A DNA stretch of 64,000 bases from Cyanophora paradoxa CCMP329 (GCA_004431415.1 QPMI01000068.1:62001-126000), one strand, 5' to 3'; numbered from the stretch's first letter, positions 18,832 to 56,952 are shown. A program made the numbers and translations. The notes: generated from the sequence alone by a model not told the origin.

Positions 18832-18852
18832 AGAAGAAATGGATTTACAAGA

Positions 18853-26902: not shown

Positions 26903-27490
26903 ACACAAGGTTCATTCGTAATTTTTTTATGTTACAGTATAATAAAAGAGAAAACGGAAGATATGGAAATTCCCCAATTCAATCACAGGTTTATAATGCT
27001 CTTACTGATGGCATCTTTACTGGTGAACGGGTGAATGGTATTATATCTTCGTTTGAGCCTGAAAAGACAAGGGACAGTGTTTTATTTGTCAGAGTAAAAG
27101 AATTGGGAGATCTGGTTCAGTGTGGGGATGGTCTCCTGACAGGCTACTTCCACAAAATCGTGGTTCCTGACAAGGACTACGGTGAGCATGTGGTTTACAA
27201 TTCAACAGAATCTCACCCACTTTACAAGTACTATAACAAAAAAATGGGTTTGTCTACATTCTCTGTGGATATAGTAAATGCTATAAACGAACCAATCGAT
27301 TTTGAGGGTCAACCTGTCCACCTCACATTTGAAATTCGATATGGGGAGGAGCCAGCAGGCGACCCTGTCTATGAATACTTTAAGATGCGGATGTCACAAA
27401 GTCATCCAACATATCCAATCATTGCGAGTTTTGGGTAAACACAAGGTTCATTCGTAATTTTTTTATGTTACAGTATAATAAAAGAGAAAA
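26420..27490 (+). repeat. 535-bp direct tandem duplication (26420-26954 / 26956-27490)
   Basis: Apparently identical copies of the penton 3' half plus intergenic DNA; period 536. Confidence 0.9.
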
Positions 27491-31674: not shown

Positions 31675-31877
31675 CAGGGTAGACAGGAGGTAGACAGAAG
31701 GTAGACAGGGTAGAGGGTTGTTTGTAAACTTTCTTAGGAAAATCCCTCCTCGCGGGAAGTTTTACATACAACCCTCTACCCTGTCTACCCAGACCCTCTA
31801 CCCTCTACCCTCTACCCTCTACCCTGTCTACCCAGACCCTCTACCCTCTACCCTCTACCCCCTACCCTCTACCCTCA
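31675..31877. promoter_or_regulatory. Putative replication origin: inverted iteron arrays around a 64-bp core
   Basis: GGTAGACAG/GGTAGAGG repeats face CTCTACC/CTGTCTACC repeats, immediately downstream of the primase-helicase. Confidence 0.55.
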
Positions 31878-31882
31878 TATGA

Positions 31883-34360
31883 TTATTCACTATCACTTTC
31901 AATTCCACATTTTGACTTCAATCCCACATAGTAAATGGAATTCACACCATTCCTTTTCACCTGCTTCTTAGGAATCCCATTGATCACAGTCATAGCTGTT
32001 CCAAAGGCTGTTTGGCTCATTTCTTTATCCACTCTGGAATACTCTTTGAATAGATCAGCTGCCTTGATGACGTCACTGCTGCTGTGGGTGATTTCAAAGT
32101 TTGCCTGGAGCCATGTCAGCACTGGGTTATTCTCAGTAATATATTCCTTGCTGGCCTCCCTCACAGATTCAGGCACTGGGATGAAACCCATGGAACCCAC
32201 CTCTGTGGTGTAAATATCAATGAGCAGCCTCATGAAAGCCAGAGGGTACCTTTCATCATCCCTAATTCTGCCCATCAGGCTGGGGTCTGCCTTCGTTTGG
32301 CCTTGGATGGGATTTTCCTTGAACTGATATTCAAAGTGGGACACATGGAGGCGCCTTTGAATGCCTCCATCCAGTTTGGAGAGCTTTGGAATATCATTTG
32401 TGAGCAGGAATGGAATGAATTGAGGGCTGAATGTTATGGGGTTCCCATATAGCTGCCTTGCTGTGATTTTCTCACCTCCAGTGATCTCCTTTATTTTGCC
32501 CACCTGAAGCTTGTCACTGGCCTCTGGCTCATTGGAGAAGATCACCCTCACACCCTTTTTATCAGCCAGCTCAGGAACAGGGGCGCCAGACCTTGGCTTC
32601 CCACTCACCCAATAAGAGCTGTCAAGAGGCTGGGCATAATCACCAAGCGCCTTAAGTGCCAGCTCCTGAACAGTGGATTTACCATTGGAACCAGTGCCTG
32701 TCCATATGTGGAAGCGCTGGTCTTTGTTGCCCTTTCCAGACAGGGCTCCAGCCAATGTCCTGATCATGAACTGAGCAGTCTCTTGATCTTTGAATGGCTC
32801 ATATACAATTTTCTTAATTTCTTCCATGACATTCCCGTCAATCACAGAAGCATATGGATAGCCCACTGTCTTGCTGACATACTCATCAGCTTTGGCTGGG
32901 CGAAAGACCTTGTTTTGAAGGTCATAGACTCCATTGGTGAACCCAATCAGCTCCTTGGATTCATCCATTTTGGCAGCTATTTCAGTGTCAGCAAAGTGAG
33001 CCTTGGCCTCTTTGATGATGGAATTTTTGAATCCACATTTCAGGAGCTGTTTGGAAATTTCAAGGCATTTCTTGGCATTCTCCTCATACTTTGAGCTTTC
33101 ATCTGGATTAGCAGCAGCTGCGCGAGTATTTTCCATTGCCTCCTTCATGAAGAGCTTCATGACATCAGTGGATAGTACTTTGCGCAGTGTATGGGGCTCC
33201 CTTTCAGCTCTCCACAGTCCAGTGGCCTTATCCCTCACATACCAGATGTCTTTTTGATTGGCATCATAGCAGAATTGGTCTTTCTGTGTGTGGTACAGGA
33301 CTTCAGCCACATTGTAATGACCTCCATTAGAAGCAATGGCATTTTTAATGGCCTGCTTGAGGTCTCCCTTGTTGGCAAACAGCTGAATAAATAGATCCAG
33401 ATTATCAGCTTTGAGCCAGAAGACCAGAGAAGCATATGTCAGTGGCTTTGCTGAGCTGCCCTTTTGGAAGCTCTGCCAAGCCTTGTCACATGCCTCAGCA
33501 CTATATTTGCTGCTCTGTTGGCTGAACTTGTGCCAGATGGCCAGTACTCTGTCTTCAGGCATTTTCTTGTCCCCCATTGTGCTTGTCAGGGCCAACCCAA
33601 CATTAACCCAGTCAGCATAGCCATCAGCTCGTTTTTCGCTGAGCCCCATCACAAGCTTTTCCAGCTCATCACTGGTGATGATTTCGCTGGAATAAGCATT
33701 ATTTTTGGGCAGCTCCTGGGCAGGCTCCTCCTTCTCTGGAAGAGTGAGCAGGGCCTCCTTGCCAGTGAGAAGCTGGACAAAGAAATCAGTGTCCTCATGG
33801 GATGTTAGCTTGGTGAACACAGTGTCCCAGCAAGGTTCCTCATAGGTGCTGCTCTTGTCAGCAAGAGCCTTCTCTTTACAGCAACCAAGGCACACAAGCG
33901 CCCTGTTGTTGTTGTAAACAGATGGATCATAGTCCTCATGAGGCTTGAGCCCAGCCCTCTCAAGGAAAACAGGGAAATCCCTGTAGATGCCATGAAGGGT
34001 GGTACATACCATGTGGGCACTCACTTTGTAGCATGGATCCTGTGTGTCTTTTTTGATCAGCAGCCTTGATCTGGTGGATATGGCAATGGTGCTGATGTGG
34101 ACACCAAGTGCCTTGGCCAGCTTTTCAGCCTTGGAGTTAATTAGCCCAAGTCCCTCATCATCAACCTCATCAACAGGCAGAACCTGTTCGAAATCAATGT
34201 AGAGCTTGGTGAATTTATGGCCACTCAAGTACTCAGCCATGTGCCTGTTGCCTGAAGCAATCCTCTGGAGTGCCTCAGTGACTCTGATAGTCACAGTGCT
34301 GGCTTCGCGGCTGCCAATGATGCTTGTTAGGAAGGTGCCAATGATGCTGGTGGATGCCAT
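31883..34360 (-). CDS. AEP primase - PriCT-2 - D5-like SF3 helicase
   Basis: LYIDFE, SAH, DPSVY (AEP); YADWVNVGLAL...WHKFSQQSSKY (PriCT-2); GTGSNGKS, SNEP, KEITGGEKITARQLY (SF3). Confidence 0.92.
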   Translation of the reverse strand: MASTSIIGTFLTSIIGSREASTVTIRVTEALQRIASGNRHMAEYLSGHKFTKLYIDFEQVLPVDEVDDEGLGLINSKAEKLAKALGVHISTIAISTRSRLLIKKDTQDPCYKVSAHMVCTTLHGIYRDFPVFLERAGLKPHEDYDPSVYNNNRALVCLGCCKEKALADKSSTYEEPCWDTVFTKLTSHEDTDFFVQLLTGKEALLTLPEKEEPAQELPKNNAYSSEIITSDELEKLVMGLSEKRADGYADWVNVGLALTSTMGDKKMPEDRVLAIWHKFSQQSSKYSAEACDKAWQSFQKGSSAKPLTYASLVFWLKADNLDLFIQLFANKGDLKQAIKNAIASNGGHYNVAEVLYHTQKDQFCYDANQKDIWYVRDKATGLWRAEREPHTLRKVLSTDVMKLFMKEAMENTRAAAANPDESSKYEENAKKCLEISKQLLKCGFKNSIIKEAKAHFADTEIAAKMDESKELIGFTNGVYDLQNKVFRPAKADEYVSKTVGYPYASVIDGNVMEEIKKIVYEPFKDQETAQFMIRTLAGALSGKGNKDQRFHIWTGTGSNGKSTVQELALKALGDYAQPLDSSYWVSGKPRSGAPVPELADKKGVRVIFSNEPEASDKLQVGKIKEITGGEKITARQLYGNPITFSPQFIPFLLTNDIPKLSKLDGGIQRRLHVSHFEYQFKENPIQGQTKADPSLMGRIRDDERYPLAFMRLLIDIYTTEVGSMGFIPVPESVREASKEYITENNPVLTWLQANFEITHSSSDVIKAADLFKEYSRVDKEMSQTAFGTAMTVINGIPKKQVKRNGVNSIYYVGLKSKCGIESDSE

Positions 34361-34495
34361 TCTACTATAGGGTGAGATAATTATTTCAGTGAACTATACC
34401 CTTAAGTACTTTTCGAAAAAAGGAGTAACTCAAATCAATTTTTCGGGACCCCCCTCCCCCCTCCCCCCTCCCCCATCCCCCTCTCCCCTCTCCCC

Positions 34496-34687
34496 TCACA
34501 CATAGGGATCCCGCTTTCTCGGCCGCCCCCTCCTATCTGGGGTCGCCTCCTCAAACAGATACCTGATACACAGGAGAGCCCCAGCCTTGTATGTGCTGAC
34601 CCTCACGTATTTTTTGTGGAGCTCGCGAAACTCTGGATCGTTTTGGATCCTGCGCTTGATGTACCTCATTTGCTTGGTGTACGCCAT
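34496..34687 (-). CDS. Small basic AT-hook-like protein
   Basis: NDPEFRE...LLCIRYLF...RRGRPRK; similar to 56447-56701. Confidence 0.55.
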   Translation of the reverse strand: MAYTKQMRYIKRRIQNDPEFRELHKKYVRVSTYKAGALLCIRYLFEEATPDRRGRPRKRDPYV

Positions 34688-34835
34688 TGCTGGATGTGTT
34701 CCCCTTATAGTATAGTTGAGATTTCTTTTTAAATAGGGATCGCGGGGTTTATTCTCATTGAGCGCCGCGAATTTTCCAAAATATACCCATTTAAAGATTA
34801 TTTTCGTACCTATATATAAGATACAGCCCCCAGCA

Positions 34836-37800
34836 ATGCCCCGCCGCAGCCACTATCAAATTAAGGAGCTTCAGGATGAGATTATCGGGAATTTAGCCTT
34901 TCTACTTGCGAACCATTCCATTAGCGACGGAGAATACGAAGCTTATATTAAACAGACCAATAAAAAGCTCAAAGGGCTACAAGCCCTGAACCGAGAGCTG
35001 CTCGGAAAAATCGAGCTACTCGACGAAGGTGACCGCCTGGGACAGATTCAGGCCGACCAGACGACCACCACACAAGTTCGTGGAGAGGACTACACGGCCT
35101 TAATTAATGAGCACAGGGCGCTGAATAATAAATATATTGATTTCACGATCCGCGCCAAGCATCGAATCACAACCACCCAGGAATTTAATGACACATATGC
35201 TGAAGAGCTTCATTCGAGGCTTCAAGACGCCATCAACTCGCAGATGTCAATTAAAACGCGCTTCACATACATCTGCCGTTTTTCAAGGGCGAGTAGCCCC
35301 AGAGAATTCATTACCAAACATATTTACAGTAGCTACAATATAATTACCAGATCGCGCAGCCTCCAAAAGGAAACGTCAAAATTGGCCAGAGAATGCCAAT
35401 CCCAGATCGATGTCACTGACAGCTATCGTTTGGACAGCATTCAAGCGCTACGAGTGATTGTTCTCTCATACAAACCCATAGCAGGGGCAGGTTTTATTCC
35501 ACTCCCCGACTGGCTAAAGAATAAACGCGCAATTGTGAACGTAAATAACGCAGATGACAGGTGCTTTGAGTATGCCATCCTTTGCTACATTCATAAAGAT
35601 GACGTAAATAGTCACAAACGAAATGAACCCTGCCAGTACAGGAGGTGGTTCAAAAAGGAGTTGAATTTCGAGGGCATCGAATTTCCTGTAAAGGCGGATG
35701 CTGATACTATTGACCTGTTCGAAAGCCTCAATCCAGACATCTCTGTTAATATTTACGACACCTTCAACTCTACAGAAGAAATTAATCTGCTCCACAACAG
35801 CTCTTCGCGCAACAGGAAGTACCAAGTCGACCTGCTCCTAATTACAGGCGAAAATGGGAAAAGCCACTACACTACAATATTTAGTATGTCGCGACTGCTT
35901 GCGCAAAATGACAAACAGCGCCTACATTTCTGTAAAACGTGCTCAAATCATTTCAAGACTGAAGAGAAACTGCTTGCCCACATCCAAAGCAAACGCTGTG
36001 TGGATTGGAGGACCTCAGCAGGTGAAACCCCAAAGCAACCCACATTCATTGAGTTTGGACTGAAGCATCTAACCAAAACCGTATTTCTCCCAGTAATTGC
36101 GTACTGCTACTTTGATTTTGACACAGATCAAACGGGCATGTTCAAAATTAAATCTATCTCCATGATTGGCCTATAAAGTAGTCATCAAGAAAAAGCACAC
36201 CAGCATCTACGAGCTTTTAACTACACTCGACAAAGCAGCCCCTGAGCTACTTAAAGCCCTATTCACCAACGTCCCAATGTCACTGACAAAGGAGCAAAAG
36301 CACGCCCACTACCTCACCAAAATGTGCTACATCTGTGATGGTACGTTTTCCCAAGACAATTTTAAAGTCCGCGATCATGACCACCAAACGGGCGACTTTG
36401 TAGGTACAGCATGTCGCAGATGTAACCTTCACAGACGCACCAGCAATTTCACCAAGATTCCCATAGTGACCAATGACCTCTCACTGTCTGGAAACCAGCT
36501 ATTCAAGGCCATCGCGCTCAATTCCGAGAGGCGCGTGGACGTCCTTGCGAAATCGTTTGACAACTACTTGTCGATCACCTGGGGTTGTTTCAAATTCATT
36601 GACATCAAAAACTTTATCGATTTTGGCGTTCAAAACGTGGAAGAATTAAAGGAAAGGTTCCAGCTTTTCCGCCAGAAATCGCACAGAACCTATGGCATGG
36701 ATGCTGCCCATTACGTCTCAAGTCCTGGGCTATCATGGGACAGCGTGCTGTCGACCACCAGGCCAAAGATCGAGCTGCTTTCCAACTCTGATATGTACAG
36801 CATGGTTGAAGGTATGATTAGGGGAGGCCTTTCTATTATGAATCACAGGTACGCCAGAGCAGAGAAAGATGATCACATAATCTATTTGGACGCCAATAAT
36901 CTATACGGCTACGCCCTCTCGCAAAAGCTGCCCCTCTCAGGCTTCCAGTGGCACACAGATCCCGCTATCTATGACCTCACATCGCCAGAGGGCGCAATTT
37001 TGGAGGTGGACATTCATTATCCCAAAAATCTCCATGAAATTCACAAAGAGCTGCCGCTTGTCATCAAGAGAACAGAGGATGGACTACAAGCGGCCTGTGA
37101 AGACAGATCCAACAACGTGGTGTCTAAACCTCTGCTCCAATTCATGGTAGCACAAGGCTTAAAGGTCACCAAAATCCACAGGGTGTTAACATTTACCGAG
37201 GCTGCCTTTATGAAGCCCTACGTTGAATCCAATGCCCAAAACCGCAGAGAAGCCCCCTCTAAACCCGAAAAGGACTTCTTTAAAATTATGAACAATAGCC
37301 TGTTCGGTAAATCCATTGAGAGAGTGAGAGGGCGCTCCAATGTCAAGATTGCCACCACCGAAAAGCAATTTATGAAATATGCGCGATCCCCACTGCTCAA
37401 GGCCGAAACGAGACTGAGTGATTCAGCAGTTGCCTTCGAAATGCTACAGAAAGATGTCAAGCTGGACAAGCCCATATCAATCGGAGCAGTTGTCTTGGAT
37501 CTTGCCAAGCTGCGCCTATTTGATTATTACTATAACACCATCAAGCGCAAATGGCCGGACTGTAAATTGCTTTTCACAGATACGGACTCGCTGTGCTTAC
37601 TCGTCCGCTCGAAATCCATTGAAAACGACTTAAAGGACATTGATACCAACCCTACTGAGCTGGGGAAGTTCAAGAACGAGTTTGATGGCCGCACAGTAAT
37701 TGAATACGCTGGAGTGAGGCCGAAATGCTACAGCATCAAAACGGACGATGCTGAAATTAAGAGACTGGCGGGGGTCTGTAAAGAGACAGTTGGCGCCGAC

Positions 37801-37923
37801 CTATCATTCCAAGATTATAAAGATCACGTGTTGTGGCAGAAGCCGAAACAAATCGAAATGAACGTCCAAAAGAAGCTTGACAGTGAGACGTTCAATGTGA
37901 GGATGTCAAAGATTGCTTTCTGA
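34836..37923 (+). CDS. Protein-primed family B DNA polymerase (Polinton-type), one frameshift at ~36165-36176
   Basis: FIPLPDWLKNKRAIVN..N.DDRCF; endonuclease VII-like VRDHDH...CRRCN; motif A YLDANNLYG, motif B KIMNNSLFGK, motif C TDTDS, PKCY. Confidence 0.9.
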
Positions 37924-37934
37924 TATCAATATAA

Positions 37935-39284
37935 ATGACGTCAAAAATCACACGAAGACAGGTGGAGTATGATGTGAGTGTACTGCCCATCCCAATCCCG
38001 CAGGAGGAGAGAGGAAGTCGCATACAGAAGAAGAGTGACCTCAAAGCTTTAGTCCCCGCGGAAATTCCCACGGCAATCGCTGTCCCGCATTTAGACCCCG
38101 TCGCGAATACATTCTATGATACAAAGCTGGGGTTTAAAGGGCTCGCCTCACTGGCCAAAGAGCTCCCCAACGTGCCCAGAAAGATTTTGAGGCGCTTTTA
38201 CTACGCGCAGGAAATTAACCAAATTAATAAACCACTCCCGTCCGCCAAAAAGACCCCCTATATTCCAATTCGGCAGCCGCTTGACACTTATGCCATCGAT
38301 CTGATATTCTATCCCGCATACAGTAAACAGAATCAAGGTTATAACACGTTTCTAACCGCAGTGGAGAACACCACGAGACAGGGGTTTATTATTCCCATGC
38401 GGGGCAAGACCGCAGAAAGCACGTTGAACGCATTTAAGGAGCTTGAGCAACTGGTTCCGCGTCCAATCGTGAAGGTACAAAGCGACGCGGGAAGCGAATT
38501 CGTGAATAAAACATTTAAGGATCATTTGGAATCGCAAAAGATCGAGCAGCAAGTGTCGCAGGCCGGGGATCACAATAGCCAAGGCCGCATAGAGGCATTC
38601 AATCGCACAATCAAGAAACTAATCAATGCGTACTGCGTCGCCAACAATACTGTGAAATTCTTTGACAAACTCGATGATTTCGCATACAATTATAATAATA
38701 CGATCCACTCAGCGACGGGAATGAAACCAGCAGAGACCACGGAGCTACACGTGCCTGTAATAATCGCGAGAGAAAACGAGAAATTTATGAAGTCGATCGA
38801 ATACTTAAAGGATTTCCCAGCGGGAACCCACGTCCGAGCGAAAATAGAGAAGAGCCCGTTCGCCAAACAAGGCAACAACTGGAGCCGCGAGATATTCACA
38901 ATAGATGGAGCGGAGGGATTCAAGTTTAGATTGAGGGACAATTCTGGTAAATTAATCGATCGGCTGTACGCCCACTACGAGCTACAGAAAGTGGAAAGCG
39001 TCGAATTTCTGGAAGCCCCATCGATTAATGTGATCGAAGAGGCAAAGAAAGAGGCGCGCGCGGCGACTCGCATTGCGAGGGAAGGTATAGATATGGCGCC
39101 CTCAGTGCCCGAGGGCAGTTTACTGGAGGCTCGAGGCGAGACCAGCCGCAGGGTGGCGCGGGAACTGAGCAAGTTAGCCGTGGCAGGAACCCAGAGGCTC
39201 GCCCCGAGCGCTGTGCGCACAGAGAATATAACTCAGTACACATCAGCGACATCGAGGCTGCGATCTCGCGGGAGAGCGAAATAA
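37935..39284 (+). CDS. Retroviral-like (rve) integrase
   Basis: AIDL, QSDAGSEF, IEAFNRTIK (DDE); YNNTIHSATGMKP; FAK..NWSREIF. Confidence 0.92.
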   Translation: MTSKITRRQVEYDVSVLPIPIPQEERGSRIQKKSDLKALVPAEIPTAIAVPHLDPVANTFYDTKLGFKGLASLAKELPNVPRKILRRFYYAQEINQINKPLPSAKKTPYIPIRQPLDTYAIDLIFYPAYSKQNQGYNTFLTAVENTTRQGFIIPMRGKTAESTLNAFKELEQLVPRPIVKVQSDAGSEFVNKTFKDHLESQKIEQQVSQAGDHNSQGRIEAFNRTIKKLINAYCVANNTVKFFDKLDDFAYNYNNTIHSATGMKPAETTELHVPVIIARENEKFMKSIEYLKDFPAGTHVRAKIEKSPFAKQGNNWSREIFTIDGAEGFKFRLRDNSGKLIDRLYAHYELQKVESVEFLEAPSINVIEEAKKEARAATRIAREGIDMAPSVPEGSLLEARGETSRRVARELSKLAVAGTQRLAPSAVRTENITQYTSATSRLRSRGRAK

Positions 39285-39287
39285 AAT

Positions 39288-40419
39288 CTAGGCGGAGTCA
39301 GTGAGAGCCTCCATCATGGCCTCGTCGTCGACGTCGCCGAAGGGGAGCTCCGCCATCTCCTCGTCGCCGTCCGCGCCCTCCCCCTCGCCGCCATCCGCGC
39401 CCTCCCCCTCGCCAGCCGCGGCCTCCGCGCCCTCCTCAGCCCCCTCCTCGCCCTCTGCGCCCTCCTCGCCCCCATCCGCGCCCACCCACTCCGCGCCCTC
39501 CTCCTCCGCGCCCTCGGCCGCCCCCTGCGGCTCCAGATCCTCCTCCTCGCCCTCGGCCTCCTCTGCGACCGCGGGAAGGGTGGCCGCGGGCTTGGGGGCG
39601 GCCTTGGGGGCGGCCGCGGGCTTGGGCGCGGCCTTGGGGGCGGCGTCGGCCTTGGGGGCGGCGGCCGCGGTCTTGAGGATGGCGCCGGTCTTGAGGGCGG
39701 TCTTGATGAACTCGGGCGTCTTCGCCTTCTTGGCCTTGGGCAGCAGAGCTGAATAGCTGCTCTCGTCCCAGTACTCCTGTGTGGAGCCAGAGGCCGCCGC
39801 GGTCTGCTCGACGGGTCAGCTCGAATTAATAGCAATTATTTTATTTTTGCGCGAAGGGCGCCGCCACGCACCTCCACAGCCTCGGCCGCCCCCTCCATGT
39901 TCATGGAGTGGCGCAGAGACGCGTTCACAAGCCCCTGTGCCGCAGCTGCCCGTGAGCAGGGGCAGGTAGTTAATTAATATAAAGCGGGACGCACCCGTTT
40001 GACAGTGAGGCCGAATTGGATGACCTTCTTGTTGAACTGAATCGGTACCTTGCCGTCGACCTTGCGGATCAAATTCGAGTCCGCCATGCGATCGGCGACC
40101 CGCTTCAGGGACTGCGCCGCGGCCGTCGTTAGCTATATTTATATTCGCAATATTAATGTGTACACGCAGGGCGTACGGCAACGAGGTCGTTTGGAAGACT
40201 CTTGATCAACTCGATGCCTTTCGTAGCGATCTCGTGCTTTTCCTCGAGTTCGGCAGTCGCCGAGCCGCCGCCCAGCTGGCGCTCGAGCGCGGCCAGCCTC
40301 TCCAACATCGCAGACTCGCGTTGAGGAGCCGTCATATTGCGCCATACGTTAAGGCCGACGCCAACCATGGTGGCTTCGCGCCTCATGCGTTCGTTCCAAG
40401 CTGCCTTGCTGGAGCTCAT
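39288..40419 (-). CDS. Spliced 4-exon gene, 312 aa, with a Lys/Ala/Pro-rich segment and an acidic tail
   Basis: GT-AG introns 40112-40176, 39935-39994 and 39804-39871 (GTRCGY donors; GCTAAC/GCTCAC/GCTGAC branch sites) give an uninterrupted ORF MSSSKAAW...ALTDSA*. Confidence 0.8.
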
Positions 40420-40652
40420 GGCTATGCGTATACGTATATCTGCTATAGCTATGTTCGCACGATCGATATCGATATCGATATCGATGCTTATCGATATCGA
40501 TATATATGGTAGGCCGCGCACTGTGCCTACTACGGCCGCGCCCGGCCCAGTAGGCAGCGGCCAGTGCCTACTCAGTACTGCGGCCCGGTAGGCCGCGGCC
40601 CGAGTCTACTGCTGCCCGGTAGGCCGAGCACTGTAGCCTGTAGGCTGCGGCG

Positions 40653-40787
40653 CGGTGCCTACTCAGGCTCGCTGGGCCGCGCACGGTGCCTACTCAGGCT
40701 CGCTGGGCCGCGCACGGTGCCTACTCGGGCTCGCTGGGCCGCGCACGGTGCCTACTCGGGCTCGCTGGGCCGCGCACGGTGCCTACT
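40653..40787. repeat. 31-bp tandem repeat, ~4.3 copies
   Basis: CGGTGCCTACTCRGGCTCGCTGGGCCGCGCA units at 40653, 40684, 40715, 40746, plus a partial unit. Confidence 0.9.
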
Positions 40788-41189
40788 GCTGCCCGGTAGG
40801 CACAGGCCGGCGCCTACCGAAGCACTGCGCGCGCGCGTAGGCTGCTGAGCGGCCAGGCACTGGCAAAATTTACCACTCTGGGCCAAACACTGAAACAGTT
40901 CTGATTCGCGGACTGGCAGCCAAAGAAATTCCGAACCGGCCGCGGCCGGGGACTTCCACTCAAGCCTGAAGTTTGGCACGTCGACGTGAAATTGCTGCTG
41001 CGGAAGCCTTGATATTGGCCATCAATTCGAGTCCGAGGCAACTTGACCAAGCTAATTAAATCTGGATTTCGACTTGATTGATTTTACGAAGTTCAGCCTG
41101 AAGTTCAAGTTCCCCATTCGGGTGCGTACCGACCGTGGCGATTCGTGAATCGGCCGCACTGCGGTACGTAGTGCTACCGCAGTACCGTA

Positions 41190-41419
41190 CCGTAGACGAC
41201 TTAAATACTGCGCCACATATTACCGCGTTCTAAAATTTCGGCGCCGGTATGCGCTTTACCGCGCTACCAAATTACCGCGTTCCATCGTCTTCGAAAATGT
41301 ATTATTTGTTAGCAAAGGGGGTAATACTGCGCTACCAAATTACTGCGTTCTAAAAATTTTGAGCGCGGTAATTTGGCAGCGCGGTATTTAAGTCAGCGCG
41401 GTATATAAGTCGTCTACGG
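41190..41419. mobile_element. MITE (Tc1/mariner-like), 230 bp
   Basis: TIR CCGTAGACGACTTA...TAAGTCGTCTACGG flanked by TA on both sides; AT-rich non-coding interior. Confidence 0.7.
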
Positions 41420-41850
41420 TAGTACCGGAGCGCTAGCTTGCCTGCGCACACTGTAACAGCCTGGCCCAGTGGCAGGCGGCACAGTGCGCAGTACCGGCGC
41501 CCGTCACTGTCAGCCGCTCGATCGATCAGAATAATCAGATGCGGATGCGCATGAGCCGGGCGCGGCCCAGCGCCGACGGGAGAGTCACAGACTCACAATG
41601 TGGCTGCCCGGAGTGCCGGAGAGTCACTGTGGCTACCCTGAGTCCGGACCGTGACTCCGGATCCAGCACCGCCGGCGCCGCAGTCCGCCGGCCGGCCCGG
41701 CGGCACTGCGCATGCCCTGCGGCCGCCGGCCGCACTGCTTGTGCGACGGTACTGTAGTACGTAGTACACTGTAGTACCGTAGTACGCGAGGGTGCGCAGA
41801 CCGTCGGACAGTTCGCAGTTCCGAAGTTCGCAGCAGCAGCAGCAGCAGAG

Positions 41851-43054
41851 ATGTCGCGCGGTAGGACCGATATGCCGCTGAGCCAGCCCGTCGTCGAGGA
41901 ACTCCAAGTTATTCTCAGCAATGCGAAGTCACTTCTCCACGCCTGTGCCACGGACACACTCACTGATCTCCAGAACGCCGTCGCCAGCATGACCATCGCG
42001 ATCACTCACGAGCTGGGACAGCGTGCCGACGCGGTTAAAGCTGCTGAGGAAGCCGATGAGGACGTCCAGGATCTTCTGGTGAGCGGCGAATTCGCTTACA
42101 TACATTCATATTCATATAAATACGCGCAGAGCTCCATGGCCATCACGTACAAGCTGAAGAAGAAGCCGCTGCCGCCAGTGCCAAGCGCCAAGCCGGTGCG
42201 CCGCGGCGTCGCGTTGTATATATATATATGTATGAACACGAACATGAATATATATATGAATCGATCGCGAATACGCAGGCCACGCCCAAGCCCACGCCCA
42301 AGCCCACGGCCAAGCCCACGCCCAAGCCTGCGCCCAAGCCCGCCTCCGAGGATGAGGTTCGCAACCGTTTATATATACATATATAATGCGTACAAGCGAC
42401 GCCGCGACGCTTCAGGACGAGGAGGAGGAGCCGGAGCCGACGCCGACGCCCAAGAAGAAGGCGTCCGCGCCCAAGAAGGCGCCTGCGCCCGCCCCCGAGG
42501 TTCGATAATTGCGAGTAATTACGATGCGTAAATTTATGATCAAACAGAGCGATCCGGAGGAGGACGAGGAGGGGGAGGCCGTTAACGTTGGCGGCGACGT
42601 GAGTTCATATATTCTATAATTATCGTCGCGAGCAAATCGCTTTGGCAGTCGTCGGCAATCGTAGACGTGGTCGTCCAGGGTGCTGACAACAAGAAGTCCA
42701 TCGTCAAGGCGGTGCCAGCGTGGGCTCTGCTCGACCTCAACACGAATGCGAAGAAGATCACCGAGGACAAAGTCACCGTGCGCTCATTTCGATTTATAGA
42801 TCCAATATGCCCAGTTGCGATTGCGAGTTGAATATTTCTAATAATTATGTCAGCTGCTCAAAAACAAGATTCCTGGGTTCGAAACCATCAACAAGCGCTC
42901 AGCTATCAAGACTCTCGCCTCAGCGGGCAACGGCATGAAGAAGGCCTTCTGGGACACGACAGCCCACAATCCGAAGCCATTCTTCTGGTTCAAAGTTGAC
43001 GGCGGCGTGATTGTCAGCGCCACGAAGGCGGATTTCCGCAGCTGCGTTGTCTGA
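41851..43054 (+). CDS. Spliced 7-exon gene, 278 aa, with KPTP repeats and acidic patches
   Basis: GT-AG introns 42079-42129, 42196-42278, 42357-42415, 42500-42547, 42599-42648 and 42778-42853. AT-rich introns separate GC-rich exons; ORF open to TGA at 43052-43054. Confidence 0.8.
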
Positions 43055-43151
43055 ATTCCTTCGACAGCCATTGTGGCGTTCGACAGTCGCGATGTGCGAT
43101 TTTGAATTAATTAAAGACTGTGATGAGCATTCACTATTTACATACGAGAGA

Positions 43152-43257
43152 GAGTGTTGAGGGTGTTGAGAGTGTTGAGGGTTATATGTAAAAATTCCCG
43201 CGAGAGGGGATTTTCATAAGAAAGTTTACAAACAACCCTCAACACCCTCAACACCCC
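43152..43257. promoter_or_regulatory. Second origin-like element, inverted relative to 31713-31776
   Basis: Core 43177-43240 matches the first core at 59/64 nt (reverse complement); flanked by GTGTTGAG/CTCAACAC repeats. Confidence 0.55.
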
Positions 43258-43334
43258 CTGCTGGTGCCAAAAAGACATGATTAATACCCTAAGACCTGAA
43301 ATAAATGCTTACTACCCTAGTACCTGAAACGCGC

Positions 43335-43409
43335 ACACATAGGGATACCCCTGATCCAAGCCCTCCGGCCTTCGGCCTACAGGCTTGGATCAGGGGTATC
43401 CCTATGTGT
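43335..43409. repeat. Perfect 28-bp-stem hairpin at a junction
   Basis: ACACATAGGGATACCCCTGATCCAAGCC-N19-GGCTTGGATCAGGGGTATCCCTATGTGT, followed directly by codon ~7 of a fibre gene. Confidence 0.9.
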
Positions 43410-46400
43410 AGCAAATTTACAAACCATAACAGGTAGTGGTAAAGGAAACACTAAACATGTAAACTTTGATAATATCACCATTAAAGGGTCGGCGTCAATT
43501 GATCAGAGCGCCGATAAACCCAGTAAGACGCATCCCAGAATTCATGCTTTAACGGTGAATCAAACAGACCCAGAGAAAGAAGATGTAAGATGTAAGATGT
43601 AACTTAAAGCAAGTGGAACGCATCCCGATATTCCCACACGTTATGATAGCGGACGTTTGGTTTTTAATGTCCAGGATGAGAAGGGAGTTCATCGTAGCGG
43701 TTTGAGAATCTATAATGAAGGATCAAATTCGATAGCACAAATTCCCCAGATATTACAGGTAGCCCCACATGGTGAAGAGAATCAGATTCGCCACACCAAC
43801 AATGTTTACCCAAAGGACATCGTCAACAATTCAAACACTAATGCACTGTTTGGTTTCACTCTTCCACCGGATACTTCCAAAGAAAAGGATTCGATCACAG
43901 TCGACAGTAGTCCCAGTCAACCAGTTGCTATACATTTACATCCCGATCTTGTCGAAATGGATCGCCACCTTTTACCTTTGAAAACAAACACCAAAGACCT
44001 TGGTATTAGAACCCGACAATGGCGAAATATTCATGGTAGTAATGTTTATGCAAATGGGGAGCGGCTCGTTAGTGAAAAGACCATAAGAGAAATCATAGAG
44101 CATTACGGACCTACTCCGGTTCCGTTTCCACTTCCATGGGATCCACCAGATCTTACACCAAAGAAACAACCCGGTAGAGAATATACAGCGGATGAAACAG
44201 TAGCGTTTGGGCAACATTTTGTTAGTTGGGAAAAAGTCCATAATAAACCCGTTTTTAAAGATTACAAACCGCCAGCTGAGGAACTCTTAGCACCAGATAT
44301 TAATGTTATACCTCTCGAACACAAAGAATGTGAAGACGTGGAAGAATTACCCGATGGATTTGATCCTTACCATATGTTATATGATCGTTACCACAACTTT
44401 TACCACATGGATTAGATCAAACAACTTTTACCACATGGATTAGATCAAACATAGATTACGAACAGCCACATATACCAGATGAAGAGTTATTAGCAGACGG
44501 ATTACAGCCGGGATTTTTCGATTTTACCGTAGATTGGAGGGATATTATTAACAAACCCGACACATTCCCACCAGATCCCCACGAACACGAATGGGATGAC
44601 ATTCTAAACAAACCGGAAAGATTTCCTCCCACAGAGCATAGGCACGATTGGGAAGATTTAGATAACATACCTACTGAATTTCCACCAGCAGACCACAGGC
44701 ATAATTGGGACGAAATCGATGAGCAACCTACTTTCGCATCCGCAGGAAATGTATTAACAGATTTCCAACATGGTGTAAGTCTTTATAGAAATATTAACGT
44801 AGAAGAAAGATTACAATTAAATGACCACTACCTTAATCGCATGGGAATAGAAGCAGGAACAGGAATGGAAGCCGAATTATACATTAGACCACCCAGAAGA
44901 GAAGGGATTTTACCAATTAATGGTAATTTTGGTTTGTATGAGACGAAACCCGGAATTTATTTAACAAGCTTCTATTCTGAGGATATCCCGATGACAGATG
45001 TATTACCTCCTATACCGTCGCTTCCATTAGATCCAAATAGTTATGATAACAAAGACGCAGCAATACAAATTAATGTTACAGATGTAAGCGATTTTGACCA
45101 ATCGAGACCAAAATTAGTATTTACTCGGCAGCGTCTTTTACCTAATACTTTTATAGGAGATCGAGATGATTATAGAAGATGTGAGGTAGCATGGATAAAA
45201 ACAAATTATAATGGCGGAGTTGGTGAAGGTTTATTAGAAATCAATCAAAGAGCAAGCGCCAAAAACATACACAATGAAGATATATCGAGAGTGGTAACAG
45301 AGGATTATTTAGAAGAACAGGGATACATTGATGAAGGAGAACTTACTAATATTCTTTCATTATTCGTGATAAAAAATGATACAAACCTTACAGTCACAAG
45401 TAACATTTACACCAGTAATATTTCAGCAAGTAACATTTACACAAGTAACCTATGGGCGAGTAACATTTACACCAGCAACATTTCAGCAAGTAACATTTAC
45501 ACCAGTAACCTTTGGGCAAGTAATCTTTATTCCAGCAACTTAGTCGTCGATTATTTGACTGTGAATATAGAAGCAAACCTTCCACATCATCCTACTTCTA
45601 ATGTTGTTTTAGATTGGATAGCAAACCACACCCATACCAAAGATGAGATTGAGGATTTTGCCCATAGGCACATGTGGAGCGAAATAGATGACCAGCCTAA
45701 GTTTGCTTCGGCAGGAAATATATTAACAGATTTTACAGATGGTGTAAGTCTCTATCAGAGCAATACCATACCTGAAAGGTTACAATTAAATGACTACTAT
45801 GTGAATCGCAAAGGAATAGATGCAGGCACCACAATGGAAGGCGAATTATACATTAGACCCCCCACAAGAATGCAGATGATTGCAGCAGGCGGGAACTTTG
45901 GAGCATTGGACACCAAACCAGGTATCTATCTAACAAGCTACTACGCTGATGACATCCCGATGACAGGAGGTTTAATATCTCTACCATCTGATCCAGTCAA
46001 CTATGATGATAAAGATGCAGCAATACAAATCAATGTTACTGATGTGAGTGATTTGGATTCATCAAGACCGAAATTAATATTCAGCAGAGAGAGACTGTTA
46101 CCAGATGCACTTTTAGGAAATCGAGATGATTACAAGAGATGTGAGGTCGCATGGATAAAAACAAATTATAATGGTGGAGTTGGTGAGGGGGTTTTAGAAA
46201 TCAATCAGAGAGCCTCAGCGAAAAACATTCACAATGAGAATATTTCAAGAGTTGTAACAGAAGATTACCTTCAAGCCCAAAACTACATAGATGAAACAGA
46301 ACTAAATACAATTATTGCAGGTATAAATATTGGTGTGACAGGGGATTACCTTCCTCTCACAGGCGGAATTATTGATGGAACAGTAACGGCATGTAACTTT

Positions 46401-50929: not shown

Positions 50930-51120
50930 AGCTGAGCTGTGAGCATTACACCCAAAAATTACCCCAATATAATTTGCCCCTTCAAGCAATATCCGCATGA
51001 TTCCCAGTAACCCAATCCCCAATCTCAGTAAATCTCAGTAAGCCTCAGTCACAATCTATTTTATTTAATCGAAGTTATATCTAAAATCTAATCAATCGAA
51101 GTTATATGCATTACACCCAA
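50930..51120 (+). repeat. Left TIR of S2
   Basis: Reverse complement of 62204-62394. Confidence 0.95.
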
Positions 51121-51269
51121 ATTTTACCGCATTTTATTTACGACATTCAGTAACAACGAGAGATTCCCGATGATACACCCAATATACCCATATTTCTCGA
51201 TTGAATCCATAAAAAACAACAAACCATAACTAACACCCGTTACACTTTAAATTTTCCGATTGATTCACA

Positions 51270-51728
51270 TTACACCCATGAGTTGTAAGATGACATAATA
51301 CCCATTTCACGGAAGAGATTAACGCGCTGTTGACATACATAATATCTTCCTTTCTCTTTTGTGTAATTCACCAAATCTTTCCACGGGTTTCTACACATCA
51401 TATGTTTTTCATTCCATGTTAAATACTTTCTCGGAACCAGAGTAACAGTTAAACCACTCGAACGATTTTTAAATTCCTCTTCTATTTCCTTTCGTTTTAT
51501 TTTCAATTCGTCTAATCGTTTTTCGCAATCTATGTGGTTTAATATCCTCGAATTTCCCTCATCTTCTTCTCTGTTTTCTTCTTCTTTGGCTCTCTCTAAA
51601 TTCTGTTCCTCCCGGTGTTTCTCACAATAGACAGTATATCTTTGAGATTCATAGCTGAAAAAGTCATGGGATCTTCGAACTGTGCAGCATCCACAATCTT
51701 CATATGTTTCCGTCGTTTCCCACCCCAT
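51270..51728 (-). CDS. Cys/His motif plus coiled-coil hypothetical protein
   Basis: CGC...HDFF...YCEKH; AAAATTGA ~37 nt upstream. Confidence 0.7.
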   Translation of the reverse strand: MGWETTETYEDCGCCTVRRSHDFFSYESQRYTVYCEKHREEQNLERAKEEENREEDEGNSRILNHIDCEKRLDELKIKRKEIEEEFKNRSSGLTVTLVPRKYLTWNEKHMMCRNPWKDLVNYTKEKGRYYVCQQRVNLFREMGIMSSYNSWV

Positions 51729-51825
51729 CGTTATTACTACCTCTCAAATTCCTTTTAAACTCTGTCAATTTTTGTCCCGATGCAAAAAATGACGCTCTTT
51801 TTTAAGAGTTTATAACTTTGTAACC

Positions 51826-52293
51826 ATGGAACAATACCTTAACTTTTTCAAGCAAAACAACATAACCTATAAGGATGTTTCACATGTATTTGCGAAAAGT
51901 TTCGAAAGAGGATATATTATGATTGCACAGTTAGCAGTGAAAACACCAGAGATGGTTTATATTGCTCAATTGAAAAAAGACACGGCACCATGTTTCCGAA
52001 TTCAGGGTTACATTAAAAATGCTGTGGTTGTTATCAAAAATGACGATTTCATAGTTTCTCCTGAATTCAAAGAGAACCATGTAAGAGATTTTCTTAGCCA
52101 CCCATACAATTGTAATGTTTGTCTCGATGATAAGGAAAATGGGATAAGATGTGATACATGTAATGCTTCCGTTTGTTACAAATGTTGGGCGGAAATGAGC
52201 ATGAATACAAATAAGAAATGTCCGGCATGCCGTAAAGATTTAGATTACCCGTTTATAATCCAAAATGGACTTAATACATTCGTTGTTGTCTAA
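51826..52293 (+). CDS. RING-finger protein (putative E3 ligase)
   Basis: CNVC...CDTC...CYKC...CPAC. Confidence 0.7.
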   Translation: MEQYLNFFKQNNITYKDVSHVFAKSFERGYIMIAQLAVKTPEMVYIAQLKKDTAPCFRIQGYIKNAVVVIKNDDFIVSPEFKENHVRDFLSHPYNCNVCLDDKENGIRCDTCNASVCYKCWAEMSMNTNKKCPACRKDLDYPFIIQNGLNTFVVV

Positions 52294-53055
52294 ACTGTTA
52301 TCGTCGTGGGTTCATTACTAATTCTTATTGATTCTCTCTTTTTTATCGCTCGTCTCTTAACAAACTTCTTAAAGCCCTTCATATCATCGTCTGTTAGTAT
52401 TGCCCGATCAGTATATATTTTATATCATACCCTTGCAATCCAGTTATGACAGTTTGGTAATTGTAACCCATAGTCTATGAAGTTCCTTGTAAGTCTTCTT
52501 ATCGAGACCCCCATTATACTCATCAAAGGCGCAATTGAACTCTTTTTCGTTCCCAAGAATATTGAAAAATACTACGAACTCAACATTTCGACGAATGGTA
52601 GTAGAAATAGAGCATAAACGTTGAGTATTAATAATTACTGTAATCGAATAATGACGGGCTGTCGTAATCAATTTAGAAAGGACAGCTGAATTATGCATAT
52701 CCAAAGAAGAACCTATCATATCGTCTAAGATTATAACCAAATTATTACGCTTCTCATTATTCTCAATTCGTTTCTTTTGCATGCTAATGAGTTTCACTAC
52801 TACATTATCGTCCCATTCCTCATAGATATTATCAGGATGCGTTATATCTCTGAATTGACCAGTAAACGCAGTAGAACTAAAGACTACAATCTGATCGATC
52901 TTATCCCTCAGTTCATAAAGTAGATATTTGCAGTAAGTTGTCTTACCAGAATTGCTGCGCCCACATAATAAAAAACGCGTGCTTAATTTAACTGTTCTTG
53001 CAGGCTCAAACTCTGGGATGTCATTCAAATCAATATCCATTCCTGTGTTATCCAT
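52290..53055 (-). CDS. A32-like packaging ATPase (1-nt indels near the 3' end)
   Basis: GRSNSGKT, LVIILDD, ARHYSIT; homology to 2132-2890 continues past the GGG/GGGG slip at ~52468. Confidence 0.88.
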
Positions 53056-53134
53056 TACAGTAATAAGATAAAAAACAAAATAAACCCCTTACCTACTAAT
53101 TTTGCGCTTCCTACTCTAACGAAAGAAAAGAACT

Positions 53135-54361
53135 TTAAAAGTTCGAGACTTTCAGGGTAGAGATGTTGTAGCCATTGAGGACCATAACATTGTGTCGTAG
53201 GGCATAGATGTCAACCTGAACAGGAGCTGCATCAGTGCATCCCGAAACAGTGAGATCCATGTAGCTCGAACTGCTGTTGAAGAAATCCTGGTAACCCATA
53301 ACCGAATTGTGGAGCGAATCTTTTCCGGACTTGGAAAGAACAATCCCGTAAACGTTTCCAGACTCGAATCCATAAGTAGTATTGCCAACAGTAACACCCT
53401 TGTAATGAGAAGGAATGTGATTGATAGCCGAGAGGAAACCAGAAATGGGTTTGTTGGAGATATCCAGGGAGCGATTGTTGTGGAAGATCTGGAACTGATC
53501 GATCTTAACATCCGAAACATGACCACAGAAATCAGAGTGAGTGTAGGTGTTAAGTTTGTTCACCTCTCGAACTGTCATGAGAATCGAATGAACCAGACCA
53601 GAAACATTAGCGAGTGTCACCTCAACCGATTCACCAGCATCAGCTGTTTTGAGCGCTCGTGTCTTCTTGTGGATGACCTCTGTGATCGGAATGCGAATAC
53701 CACCTTGTTCATTTGCCATTTTCAAAAGTGTCTCAGCCTCAGCCGAAGCGATGTTTACAAATTGACAGATCAGGGAGCAATCCGCAAATGTAACAGATCC
53801 ACCAGCAGGAACTTTGACTATCCCAGCATCACGGAAATCCACCTCAATCGTTGGCATATCGGCTAACGTACATAATGGAAAGTAAGCATCATCCCAGAAA
53901 GCAGCGGGAATTTTCACAATGTATTCCATAGCCTCATCTGTGCTTTCACGATCAAGTTCTTTGAAGTAACCAAGAGAAGCATACATGCTGCTCATGGTAG
54001 CATGATCATTATCAATCAGAGCGTTAACAGTAATCCAGTCACCAGGGATGATATACTTGAAACCACCATGAACGAAACGGACCTCATTAATAAAAGAAGA
54101 ACCACCATTGGGGAGGGTGCAGGCTACACCACCACCAGTGGCAATCTTGAAATAGAGCGAAACACCAGCAAGGAGTTGCTTGCGAGGTAGATCAAAGTAA
54201 GCGGTATTCTTGAAGCCAAAAGTGTTGCCTCGGGGACGAACTTGCTCGAGGAATGGTTTGTATTTGGGGTTGGTTCCGATTTGGAGACCAGGGGAAAGAT
54301 AAATTTGATCGGAACCGGGAGTAATGAGGAGTTCCTTAAGGGTAGTTCCAGTGAGTGCCAT
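53135..54361 (-). CDS. Major capsid protein, S family
   Basis: 408 aa; 10 amino-acid differences from 788-2014 by my count. Confidence 0.8.
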   Translation of the reverse strand: MALTGTTLKELLITPGSDQIYLSPGLQIGTNPKYKPFLEQVRPRGNTFGFKNTAYFDLPRKQLLAGVSLYFKIATGGGVACTLPNGGSSFINEVRFVHGGFKYIIPGDWITVNALIDNDHATMSSMYASLGYFKELDRESTDEAMEYIVKIPAAFWDDAYFPLCTLADMPTIEVDFRDAGIVKVPAGGSVTFADCSLICQFVNIASAEAETLLKMANEQGGIRIPITEVIHKKTRALKTADAGESVEVTLANVSGLVHSILMTVREVNKLNTYTHSDFCGHVSDVKIDQFQIFHNNRSLDISNKPISGFLSAINHIPSHYKGVTVGNTTYGFESGNVYGIVLSKSGKDSLHNSVMGYQDFFNSSSSYMDLTVSGCTDAAPVQVDIYALRHNVMVLNGYNISTLKVSNF

Positions 54362-54413
54362 CTCTTATGTTTAAAATACCAAAAGAAATTTTTAAAATGC
54401 TTTATTAAACAGA

Positions 54414-55312
54414 ATGACGCGTCATTACCTTAATATTGATTCCAGGGACCGAGATGATGGAACCCCAACGAACTTTACTTACAAAATTCCCATGCAATCC
54501 AAAATGTGAGAGCCTGCAGAGTGACTAACTTTGAGATGTTCAATAACATTTACAATCTTAGCGAGAATGGAAGTTTGATTACAGGAACCTATGATGTTGG
54601 GGATGTAATTAAGACCAAGAGTAACACTATTTCGAAAGGGACATATACTTCGGATAGTTTGGTGAATCTTCTAAATGCCAAACTAGCTTCACAAGTGTAC
54701 GGAGCAGCGGGAACTACATATACTCGCCATTTCTACGTTACATATGATCCTGTTACCATGTTTCTACGGTTCATGTGCGATGCAACATTTACCCTCACCT
54801 TTGGAAGTCGGATCTTAGCGAACTTCCTTGGTTTCCCAGATCGCAGACCTGACAGTTCTGAAAATGGATACGCTTCTGCCCTGCTCGATTCACCTGTAAC
54901 AGTTGGAGCTTATACTTATAATTACTACATTGACAGTGTTATACCGCTCGATCTTCTGTTCAACTCTTACATCCTTCTACATGTCGATCCACTCAAAGGC
55001 AATTATGTTAGCAAGAATACCAGTGATGATAAAGCCCTCGCAAAAATCGAGATTGATCAAACGGTAGGCAGTCTGCTAAAATACGATTCATCGAATAATT
55101 CCATGATCCTGCATGAGCAAAATGGTTTAGTGGAAGTGGAAACGCTAAAAGTTCGTCTCACATACTGGAATGGTGCTGAAACGGATATTACCACTGACTG
55201 GTCGATGACTCTCGAACTCATTACGGAAGATGATAAAGATCTGACCAAGAAAGCATTGAAGAATGTCATTAAAGAGTTGGAGGGACTCTACTTGCCGTTC
55301 TCACGGTCATAG
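54414..55312 (+). CDS. Minor capsid (penton-like) protein, 1-nt slip at ~54490
   Basis: MTRHYLNIDSRDR... joins the 54506 ORF frame; C-terminal LKVRLTYWNG...WSMTLEL. Confidence 0.75.
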
Positions 55313-55488
55313 GAAATACTGTAGAATAAATTTGTCTCGATATTACAAATGGCAACTCGAAAGACCCAGCCAAAGAATTTCTTAGCCAAACCAGTTGAGC
55401 AAGCAGAACCAGAACGGAAACAGTTTAAGAAATCAAAAGAACCGCTGCATATGGAACTGGTGATCTCGATAAAAATGTTCACCAAACC

Positions 55489-56701: not shown

Positions 56702-56952
56702 ATCATTTTTCTCAGCGCGCTTGCTCTGAGAAACAATGCGGTAATCGCGCTCAAATAATACTCAATCAAAAGAGGCTCGTTAGCCGCATGTATTGCTCAT
56801 TTTTCGACCCTTCTTTATTTTTTTCGAATCTCAGTTCTCCGCTGAATTTTTATTGTTCGATACTTTTGGTTTTGCCGACAAAATTTGATTCGAGTATAAA
56901 AGTATTTAAAGAAAAAAATTGTAAGTATAGAATAAGAACAGTGAACAAAGAA

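What the first reader, a model, noticed from the sequence alone, without database searches (positions are those of the whole stretch)
39288..43054. Two intact intron-rich genes, all nine introns phase 0, embedded in a viral module
Seen: divergent 4-exon and 7-exon genes whose 48-83 nt AT-rich GT-AG introns all fall between codons. The minus gene stops 3 nt from the integrase stop, which is virus-like packing. The plus gene ends ~100 nt before a virus-type origin-like repeat. Both proteins combine Lys/Ala/Pro-rich (histone H1-like) and acidic tracts. Inference: host-style, nucleus-expressed cargo of the element (possibly chromatin-binding or anti-silencing), distinct from the intronless viral genes. 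Nine of nine in phase 0 suggests an unusual intron-gain bias.
Basis: partly seen in the sequence, partly recalled or inferred. Interest (0 to 1): 0.75.

Follow-up and report, generated by a model that had tools for sequence, protein, structure and literature searches.

The report
Spliced orphan cargo on algal transpoviron
Two intact genes with host-style introns and no detected relatives sit between the integrase and the end of a small virus-like DNA element in an alga's genome; they are likely passenger genes read by the host nucleus, a layout already known from worm Mavericks, and their all-between-codon introns remain unexplained.

Summary
There are two open, divergent genes (278 and 312 aa) with nine 48-83 nt GT-AG introns, all phase 0; 46 of 48 frame-keeping alternative splice pairs are phase 0 too. 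An independent Cyanophora paradoxa gene model matches the plus gene except for skipping exon 5.

The genes fill a 3.8-kb GC-rich slot between an RVE integrase and the element's hairpin end, which is joined precisely into a fibre gene. The module (frameshifted pPolB + RVE, no capsid gene) is transpoviron-like and lies in a polinton-like-virus array. This is the cargo-slot layout described for nematode Mavericks.

Both genes appear single-copy and have no credible homologue. They are not histone H1: net charge is -3 and -26. Intron size and codon use are host-like, but the intron cores are AT-rich, whereas host introns are reported not to be GC-poorer than exons. Nine of nine in phase 0 exceeds generic baselines (P 0.0007-0.01), but I could not get the host's own rate. 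Splicing and function are untested.

The scan had no look-alike of this DNA; it did note other spliced genes on or near elements in this genome.

The parts
39288..40419 (-). Minus gene, 4 exons (40419-40177, 40111-39995, 39934-39872, 39803-39288), 312 aa: non-repetitive N-terminal ~160 aa, K/A/P tract (163-219), acidic tail (220-312, net -38)
   Evidence: exon searches found no homologue
41851..43054 (+). Plus gene, 7 exons (41851-42078, 42130-42195, 42279-42356, 42416-42499, 42548-42598, 42649-42777, 42854-43054), 278 aa: predicted helical N-terminus, K/P tract, acidic tract, ~110-aa C-terminal domain
   Evidence: EukProt model P0001 lacks only exon 5; low-confidence folds
40420..41850 (.). 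Shared divergent promoter region, 60% GC, with ATCGAT repeats next to the minus start and a 31-nt tandem repeat (about 40650-40786)
41190..41419 (.). 230-bp high-copy MITE with terminal inverted repeats and TA on both sides (Tc1/mariner-like; that family label is recalled)
   Evidence: depth 1000-4000 against about 65 for the genes
37935..39284 (+). RVE (DDE) integrase, 449 aa, candidate catalytic D122, D184, E220; its stop lies 3 nt from the minus-gene stop
   Evidence: Pfam rve E 4e-7, just under the curated cut-off; PHROG transposases; motifs
34836..37923 (+). Polinton-type protein-primed DNA polymerase split into two ORFs (34836-36176 and 36277-37923) by a frameshift near 36170. Upstream part has vOTU-like Cys/His motifs (read by eye); downstream part has EndoVII and PolB motifs A-C
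   Evidence: domain order from 10.1101/2024.03.18.585575 (passages); the break is present in contigs of 2 of 2 DNA runs
34498..34515 (+). Candidate left terminus: 16 of 18 nt match the right terminal arm; the CpG content changes at this point
   Evidence: 1.2% of 500 shuffles reach the score; no target-site duplication
43147..43260 (.). Subterminal inverted-repeat-flanked 88-nt motif; an inverted 84% copy lies at 31701-31788, after the primase gene
   Evidence: multi-copy by depth
43335..43409 (.). 75-nt terminal palindrome of a high-copy element family; right end of the element
   Evidence: fold about -39 kcal/mol; depth about 30 times the genes just inside it
43409..43410 (+). Insertion junction within codon 6 of a fibre-like gene; other copies of that gene carry the intact start at this point
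   Evidence: loose ends in runs X1 and X18; intact in-window paralogue at 8557
31883..34360 (-). Neighbouring AEP primase-SF3 helicase gene, CpG-depleted (o/e 0.13), about 5 times the depth of the cargo; likely a separate unit

Best explanation
The two genes are real host-style genes lying in a GC-rich slot between the integrase and the hairpin end of a capsid-less pPolB-integrase (transpoviron-like) element, likely as cargo that would be transcribed from their shared promoter by host RNA polymerase II and spliced by the host spliceosome while the element is integrated. Shown: the gene structures, the linkage, the right end and its target junction, single-copy status, and the pPolB frameshift. 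Inferred: the unit came from glaucophyte-type nuclear DNA and has lived in the element long enough to become tightly packed and to acquire AT-rich intron cores. Its products most likely act as nuclear accessory factors through alternating basic and acidic disordered blocks, but they are not histone H1. This copy probably can no longer copy itself. The phase-0 run most likely comes from the general phase-0 excess, the codon structure of these genes, and tolerance of frame-neutral small exons in disordered linkers, not from a new intron-making mechanism.
For: Linkage: unbranched contigs with no differences span integrase and minus gene (37500-40682) and plus gene to the terminal repeat (41397-43200) in runs X1 and X17; X18 shows the latter too.

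Right end: precise junction into a fibre gene and a high-copy terminus.

[quoted passage not shown] Capsid-less pPolB+DDE units are reported from a QPMI01 contig (10.64898/2026.10.13.758929, section 13 read), and QPMI01 is Cyanophora.

Host style: GC3 0.80-0.85 against 0.51-0.58 for pPolB and integrase. Intron lengths are close to host quartiles 57/66/85 (my reading of the PMC6142364 supplement row; column heads not seen).

Element residence: 3-nt stop-to-stop gap; AT-rich intron cores although C. paradoxa is the one species of 65 where exon GC does not exceed intron GC (PMC6142364 legend); no paralogue found.

Phase: 93-95% of AG|G sites and 72-83% of AG| sites in these coding sequences are phase 0. 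The annotated model drops exon 5 without losing frame.
Against: Splicing is not shown by reads. There is only one copy, so repeated linkage of cargo to the element cannot be shown.

The left end is weak (16 of 18 nt) and there is no target-site duplication, so the element's extent is inferred.

The host itself packs genes end to end with overlapping 3' UTRs (PMC6704402 section 3.1), and a MITE sits in the promoter; both fit a plain host insertion.

Only 1 of 9 junctions is AG|G and 3 of 9 are AG| today. Illustrative insertion-site models still give P of 0.003 or less for nine of nine, so my account of the phase bias is incomplete.

No domain, fold or homologue supports any function.
Confidence: 0.55

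Rival explanations
1. One-off capture or secondary insertion: a 3.8-kb piece of ordinary host DNA with two lineage-specific orphan genes landed in an already dead element and has no role in its life cycle.
For: Single copy, frameshifted pPolB, MITE in the promoter, host-like GC3 and intron size. The host packs genes tightly. The array is a graveyard of nested insertions.
Against: It would need a junction 3 nt from the integrase stop that spares both reading frames. No donor copy or paralogue was found. The intron cores are AT-rich, unlike the reported host pattern. The slot is the same one that Mavericks use.
Confidence: 0.25
2. A dedicated latency or anti-silencing module: element-evolved genes that gained host-type introns so as to be expressed while the virus-type genes are silent, with strict selection for phase-0 (symmetric) exons that makes the charge blocks skippable modules.
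For: [quoted passage not shown] Nine of nine phase 0 exceeds generic baselines. Plus exons 2-5 each encode roughly one charge block. Earlier unchecked notes list spliced H3 variants on or near other elements of this genome.
Against: No functional or structural evidence. The proteins are net acidic. There is a single copy with a broken polymerase. No isoform data.
Confidence: 0.15
3. The introns are artefacts: AT-rich spacers in degenerate sequence that were read as introns to force an open frame.
For: No junction reads were available; models of low-complexity genes are easy to over-fit.
Against: Consistent donors (GTGCG, GTGAG, GTTCG, GTACG) and CAG acceptors at all nine; third-position GC in every exon 68-96%; six introns shift frame and seven carry stops in the read-through frame; an independent annotation agrees.
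Confidence: 0.05

Closest known systems
Cargo region of nematode Mavericks (wasp/wosp proteases, krma kinases; 10.1101/2022.07.12.499685, passages seen)
   Same: A 2-5 kb GC-rich, poorly conserved region with intron-bearing genes between a terminus and the integrase, next to intronless core genes.
   Different: Glaucophyte host; no capsid genes inside the inferred unit; two divergent orphans with no known family and no evidence of horizontal transfer; terminal palindrome instead of long TIRs; all introns phase 0.
Transpoviron-like pPolB+DDE replication modules in polisuvirus arrays (10.64898/2026.10.13.758929, abstract passages and section 13 read)
   Same: pPolB paired with a DDE integrase, no morphogenic module, bracketing repeats, an adjacent stand-alone AEP gene; one example comes from a Cyanophora contig (EVE_QPMI01_83).
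   Different: The text does not mention spliced cargo (its one use of 'intron' concerns self-splicing introns). Whether EVE_QPMI01_83 is this locus could not be told, because figures and supplements are not held.
Punuivirus latency genes in Chlamydomonas (10.64898/2026.10.09.758095, passages)
   Same: Host-style spliced genes beside intronless virus-type genes in an integrated DNA virus.
   Different: That is a giant virus with 61 spliced genes and RNA-seq support. Here there are two genes in a ~9-kb unit, with no expression evidence.
Endogenous PLVs/virophages with terminal palindromes, Halocafeteria (10.64898/2026.07.28.741278, passages)
   Same: Palindrome at the terminus, RVE integrase, nested insertions.
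   Different: There the palindromes go mostly with non-pPolB replicases and sit next to TSDs; here only one end has a palindrome and no TSD is seen.
Linker histone H1 (features recalled)
   Same: Lys/Ala/Pro-rich disordered tracts.
   Different: Tracts of only 38 and 57 aa with net +10, followed by strongly acidic tracts; whole proteins net -3 and -26; no H15 match.

Membership tests
Maverick-type cargo region | Lies between an element terminus and the integrase | tested here: met
   Integrase stop 39284; terminus 43147-43409 with precise target junction
Maverick-type cargo region | 2-5 kb, higher GC than core genes, intron-bearing genes | tested here: met
   3.8 kb; 54-67% GC per kb against 45-50% for core genes; nine introns
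Maverick-type cargo region | Cargo belongs to families shared with hosts or moved between species | tested here: inconclusive
   No credible homologue; the exon-only searches are weak
Maverick/Polinton (complete) | Protein-primed PolB | tested here: met
   Pfam DNA_pol_B_2 and motifs A-C; frameshifted
Maverick/Polinton (complete) | RVE integrase | tested here: met
Maverick/Polinton (complete) | Capsid proteins, packaging ATPase and protease within the same element | tested here: inconclusive
   None in 34498-43409. An A32 ATPase and a putative major capsid gene (27493; no Pfam, PHROG or PDB hit) lie 5-7 kb to the left with different CpG content
Maverick/Polinton (complete) | Long TIRs and a 6-bp target-site duplication | tested here: not met
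   Only a 16-of-18-nt match at 34498; flanks differ
Transpoviron-like module | pPolB plus DDE integrase without morphogenic genes | tested here: met
   Gene content of 34498-43409
Transpoviron-like module | Replicates as a linear episome carried by a helper virus | not testable with these tools
   Needs infection experiments
Histone H1 | H15 winged-helix globular domain | tested here: inconclusive
   No Pfam hit for P0001 or for three single exons of the minus gene. The spliced minus protein was not scanned or folded; exon 2 resembles a helix-plus-wing by eye only
Histone H1 | Long, strongly basic C-terminal tail and basic protein overall | tested here: not met
   Net -3 (pI 5.8) and -26 (pI 4.5); the minus protein ends in an acidic tail
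Introner-derived introns | Repeated intron sequences with terminal repeats or target duplications | tested here: not met
   Best of 36 pairwise comparisons p = 0.003 before correction, consistent with shared composition; terminal-repeat scores low

The most novel reading that the evidence does not exclude
Small virus-like elements of protists carry their own spliced, host-transcribed regulatory module that prokaryote-style gene callers miss. Here it is a divergent pair of orphan genes whose AT-cored, strictly phase-0 introns evolved on the element, make each charge block a skippable unit, and keep the integrated element unsilenced or latent.
Probability: 0.15. Interest if true: 0.75.

Novelty: new variant of a known kind. 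Interest (0 to 1): 0.45.

Why it matters
Surveys of protist endogenous viruses call genes with prokaryotic tools on the stated assumption that these viruses 'do not contain introns' (PMC10120064, passage). This locus shows that the Maverick-style spliced cargo slot also exists in a glaucophyte transpoviron-like unit, so such cargo is likely being missed. If the genes prove to be expressed regulators, they would extend the split 'host-style latency genes versus virus-style lytic genes' from a giant virus to a 9-kb element. The contrast between these AT-cored introns and the host's GC-rich ones offers a small, checkable case of how introns evolve on a mobile element. As a single, polymerase-broken copy with orphan proteins, its present weight is moderate.

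Tried and rejected
Expression. No RNA holder was listed. These are contigs, so this is no evidence either way.

Genome. No whole genome is held, so the host phase distribution, paralogues and other element copies could not be counted. The supplement of PMC6704402 was too large to read and may hold expression data for this gene. Supplements of PMC10639083 and PMC6142364 gave no phase figure for the host. PMC10639083 includes C. paradoxa and names only Candida maltosa as an extreme major-intron outlier, which hints that the host is not nearly all phase 0.

Homologues. Viral-contig scans with integrase, plus exon 7 and pPolB found nothing. The metagenome scan gave one distant pPolB-RVE contig, L001 (26%), without the cargo. 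Of 12 phmmer hits to P0001, 11 were not self; those I inspected were low-complexity or summed FN3-like repeat matches of at most 11 bits per repeat, and one was a CheA linker, so all were rejected. PDB sequence searches gave only linker-type matches. The ESM Atlas was unavailable.

Structure. Single-sequence AlphaFold models were poor (pLDDT 46 and 45), and the fold search had no Z of 5 or more; uninformative.

Rejected readings. Histone H1 membership; introner origin; the two proteins being paralogues (no BLASTP match); an assembly error at the pPolB break; 31701-43252 as one TIR-bounded element (arms only 84% alike, primase at about 5 times the depth, and the true end lies at 43409). The sigma-70 promoter scan does not apply.

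Literature. 'polinton-like virus' + 'intron-containing genes' gave 0 papers. 'Polinton' + 'spliceosomal introns' + 'cargo' gave 6 (3 listed). 'Cyanophora' + 'Polinton-like' gave 3. None of the passages read describes this locus; subscription papers are not covered.

Full report
Verdict. The two genes are best read as spliced cargo of a capsid-less pPolB-integrase element, a layout known from nematode Mavericks. The H1 label fails, function is untested, and the phase-0 run is real but unexplained.

The genes. Splicing by coordinates gives two open genes: plus, 41851-43054, seven exons, 278 aa; minus, 40419-39288, four exons, 312 aa. The nine introns are 48-83 nt, start GTGAG, GTGCG, GTTCG or GTACG, and end CAG. 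They are 33-57% GC with cores of 26-44%, against exons of 55-75%. All are phase 0. Of 48 GT..AG pairs near the introns that keep both flanking frames open, 46 are phase 0. A search with exon 7 returned one protein, P0001 (EukProt tig00000262_g23072.t1), which is the plus protein without the 17 residues of exon 5. That naming style is the Cyanophora paradoxa annotation (PMC6704402 section 3.1 read), so the host is very likely this haploid glaucophyte. That model is a gene-finder prediction and does not prove expression.

The setting. The window is an array of polinton-like-virus pieces: three A32 ATPases, patatin, F5/8, C1q and fibre-like genes, a primase-helicase and two integrases, with nested insertions. 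Left of the genes lie an RVE integrase (37935-39284) and a polinton-type pPolB. Contigs of both DNA runs laid carry the same break with no differences, so it is not an assembly slip. The integrase and minus-gene stops are 3 nt apart.

The right end. Right of the plus gene come an 88-nt repeat-flanked motif and a 75-nt palindrome (43335-43409). In runs X1 and X18, contigs matching from 43410 continue leftwards with the intact start of the fibre gene, so 43409/43410 is an exact insertion junction. The terminus has about 30 times the depth of the genes.

Copy number and left end. The genes lie on unbranched contigs of 3,183 and 1,804 nt at the lowest depth in the region, so no near-identical second copy exists; the adjacent primase has about 5 times that depth. 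Depth is only a rough guide, and most of these runs may be the source of the window. A possible left end at 34498 matches the terminal arm at 16 of 18 nt (1.2% of 500 shuffles) and coincides with a change in CpG content, but no target duplication is present. The inferred unit is about 8.9 kb, with pPolB, RVE and cargo and no capsid gene. A 2026 preprint describes such transpoviron-like units and a lone AEP gene on a Cyanophora contig (section 13 read; QPMI01 = Cyanophora) without mention of spliced cargo.

Cargo or host insertion. Host-like traits: GC3 of 0.80-0.85 against 0.51-0.58 in pPolB and integrase; intron lengths near the host quartiles as I read them; a 60% GC promoter region with a 230-bp TA-flanked MITE. 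Element-like traits: the 3-nt packing, the position in the slot between integrase and terminus, no paralogue found, and AT-rich intron cores in a species singled out because its exons are not GC-richer than its introns (PMC6142364 figure legend). [quoted passage not shown] I put cargo at 0.55, a one-off capture into a dead element at 0.25, and a dedicated latency module at 0.15. The host's own tight, end-to-end gene packing weakens the packing argument.

The proteins. P0001 has no Pfam, PHROG or credible PDB match, and among 1.84 billion representatives only itself and 11 low-complexity or repeat-sum hits. Exons 1 and 2 of the minus gene found nothing; these are weak searches, and the spliced minus protein was not scanned. 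The basic tracts are 38 and 57 residues with net +10 each, followed by acidic tracts of net -12 and -38; whole proteins are net -3 and -26. That is not histone H1. Alternating charge blocks are compatible with nucleic-acid or histone binding, but this is inference. Folds were low-confidence and the fold search was uninformative.

The phase-0 run. Published baselines are 44.3% in aggregate (PMC10639083, passage) and 38-58% across ten species (PMC1574350, passages). These give P of about 0.0007 at 44% and 0.01 at 60%; it takes a rate between 70% and 75% to reach 0.05. Codon structure pushes the same way: 93-95% of AG|G sites in these genes are phase 0. But only 1 of 9 present junctions is AG|G, and my illustrative site-weight models still give P of 0.003 or less. 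No introner signature was found. Four small plus-gene exons cover disordered charge blocks where frame-neutral skipping would be tolerated. The host's own rate was not obtainable, and the pattern was picked after the fact. So it is more than generic chance, but not evidence of a new mechanism.

Novelty. Spliced cargo on Mavericks and spliced latency genes in a giant endogenous virus are known. I found no paper describing such cargo in a protist PLV or transpoviron-like unit, and a major survey assumes these viruses lack introns. The scan's own index has no look-alike of this DNA. Unchecked notes on the same genome mention spliced histone genes on or near other elements and a similar terminal palindrome. 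Rated a new variant of a known kind, interest 0.45.

Noticed in passing
window 50930-62394: An apparently complete 11.5-kb element with perfect 191-bp TIRs and a 6-bp target duplication (CAACTT), carrying putative capsid genes, A32 ATPase, a RING protein, a two-ORF replicase ending in an SF1-type helicase, and a second integrase.
   Followed up: partly
window about 11280-18850: A 7.5-kb C-rich insertion inside a fibre-like gene, flanked by a 20-bp direct repeat; looks like a decayed non-LTR retrotransposon. No protein test was run.
   Followed up: partly
window about 22110-24270: A G-rich, 26-27-nt tandem-repeat insertion splitting the patatin gene, flanked by a direct repeat.
   Followed up: no
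window 31883-34360: The primase-helicase gene is strongly CpG-depleted (o/e 0.13), while the pPolB-integrase module beside it is not (0.8-1.2), suggesting different methylation histories.
   Followed up: partly
window 26420-27490: An exact 535-bp tandem duplication of the 3' part of a putative minor capsid gene; recent duplication or assembly artefact.
   Followed up: no
window about 20050-20400: Two fibre-like genes from inverted, roughly 75% identical virus copies collide tail to tail.
   Followed up: no
window 43263-43362: An RNA-labelled contig of run X21 starts with 100 identical bases of this terminus and continues into unrelated sequence, so another copy of the terminus may abut a host gene.
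   Followed up: no
window 110, 4323, 31650, 34435, 51765: The motif TCAATTTT occurs five times, twice shortly upstream of minus-strand ORFs in the primase region; its reverse complement resembles the giant-virus early promoter AAAATTGA (label recalled).
   Followed up: no
window 63612-63679: A possible 68-nt GT..CAG intron of 69% GC in the host-like flank, contrasting with the AT-cored cargo introns; speculative.
   Followed up: partly
L001 275-2815: A 27% GC metagenome contig with the same pPolB-then-RVE order; its integrase is closer to the window's second integrase (38%) than to this one (26%).
   Followed up: partly
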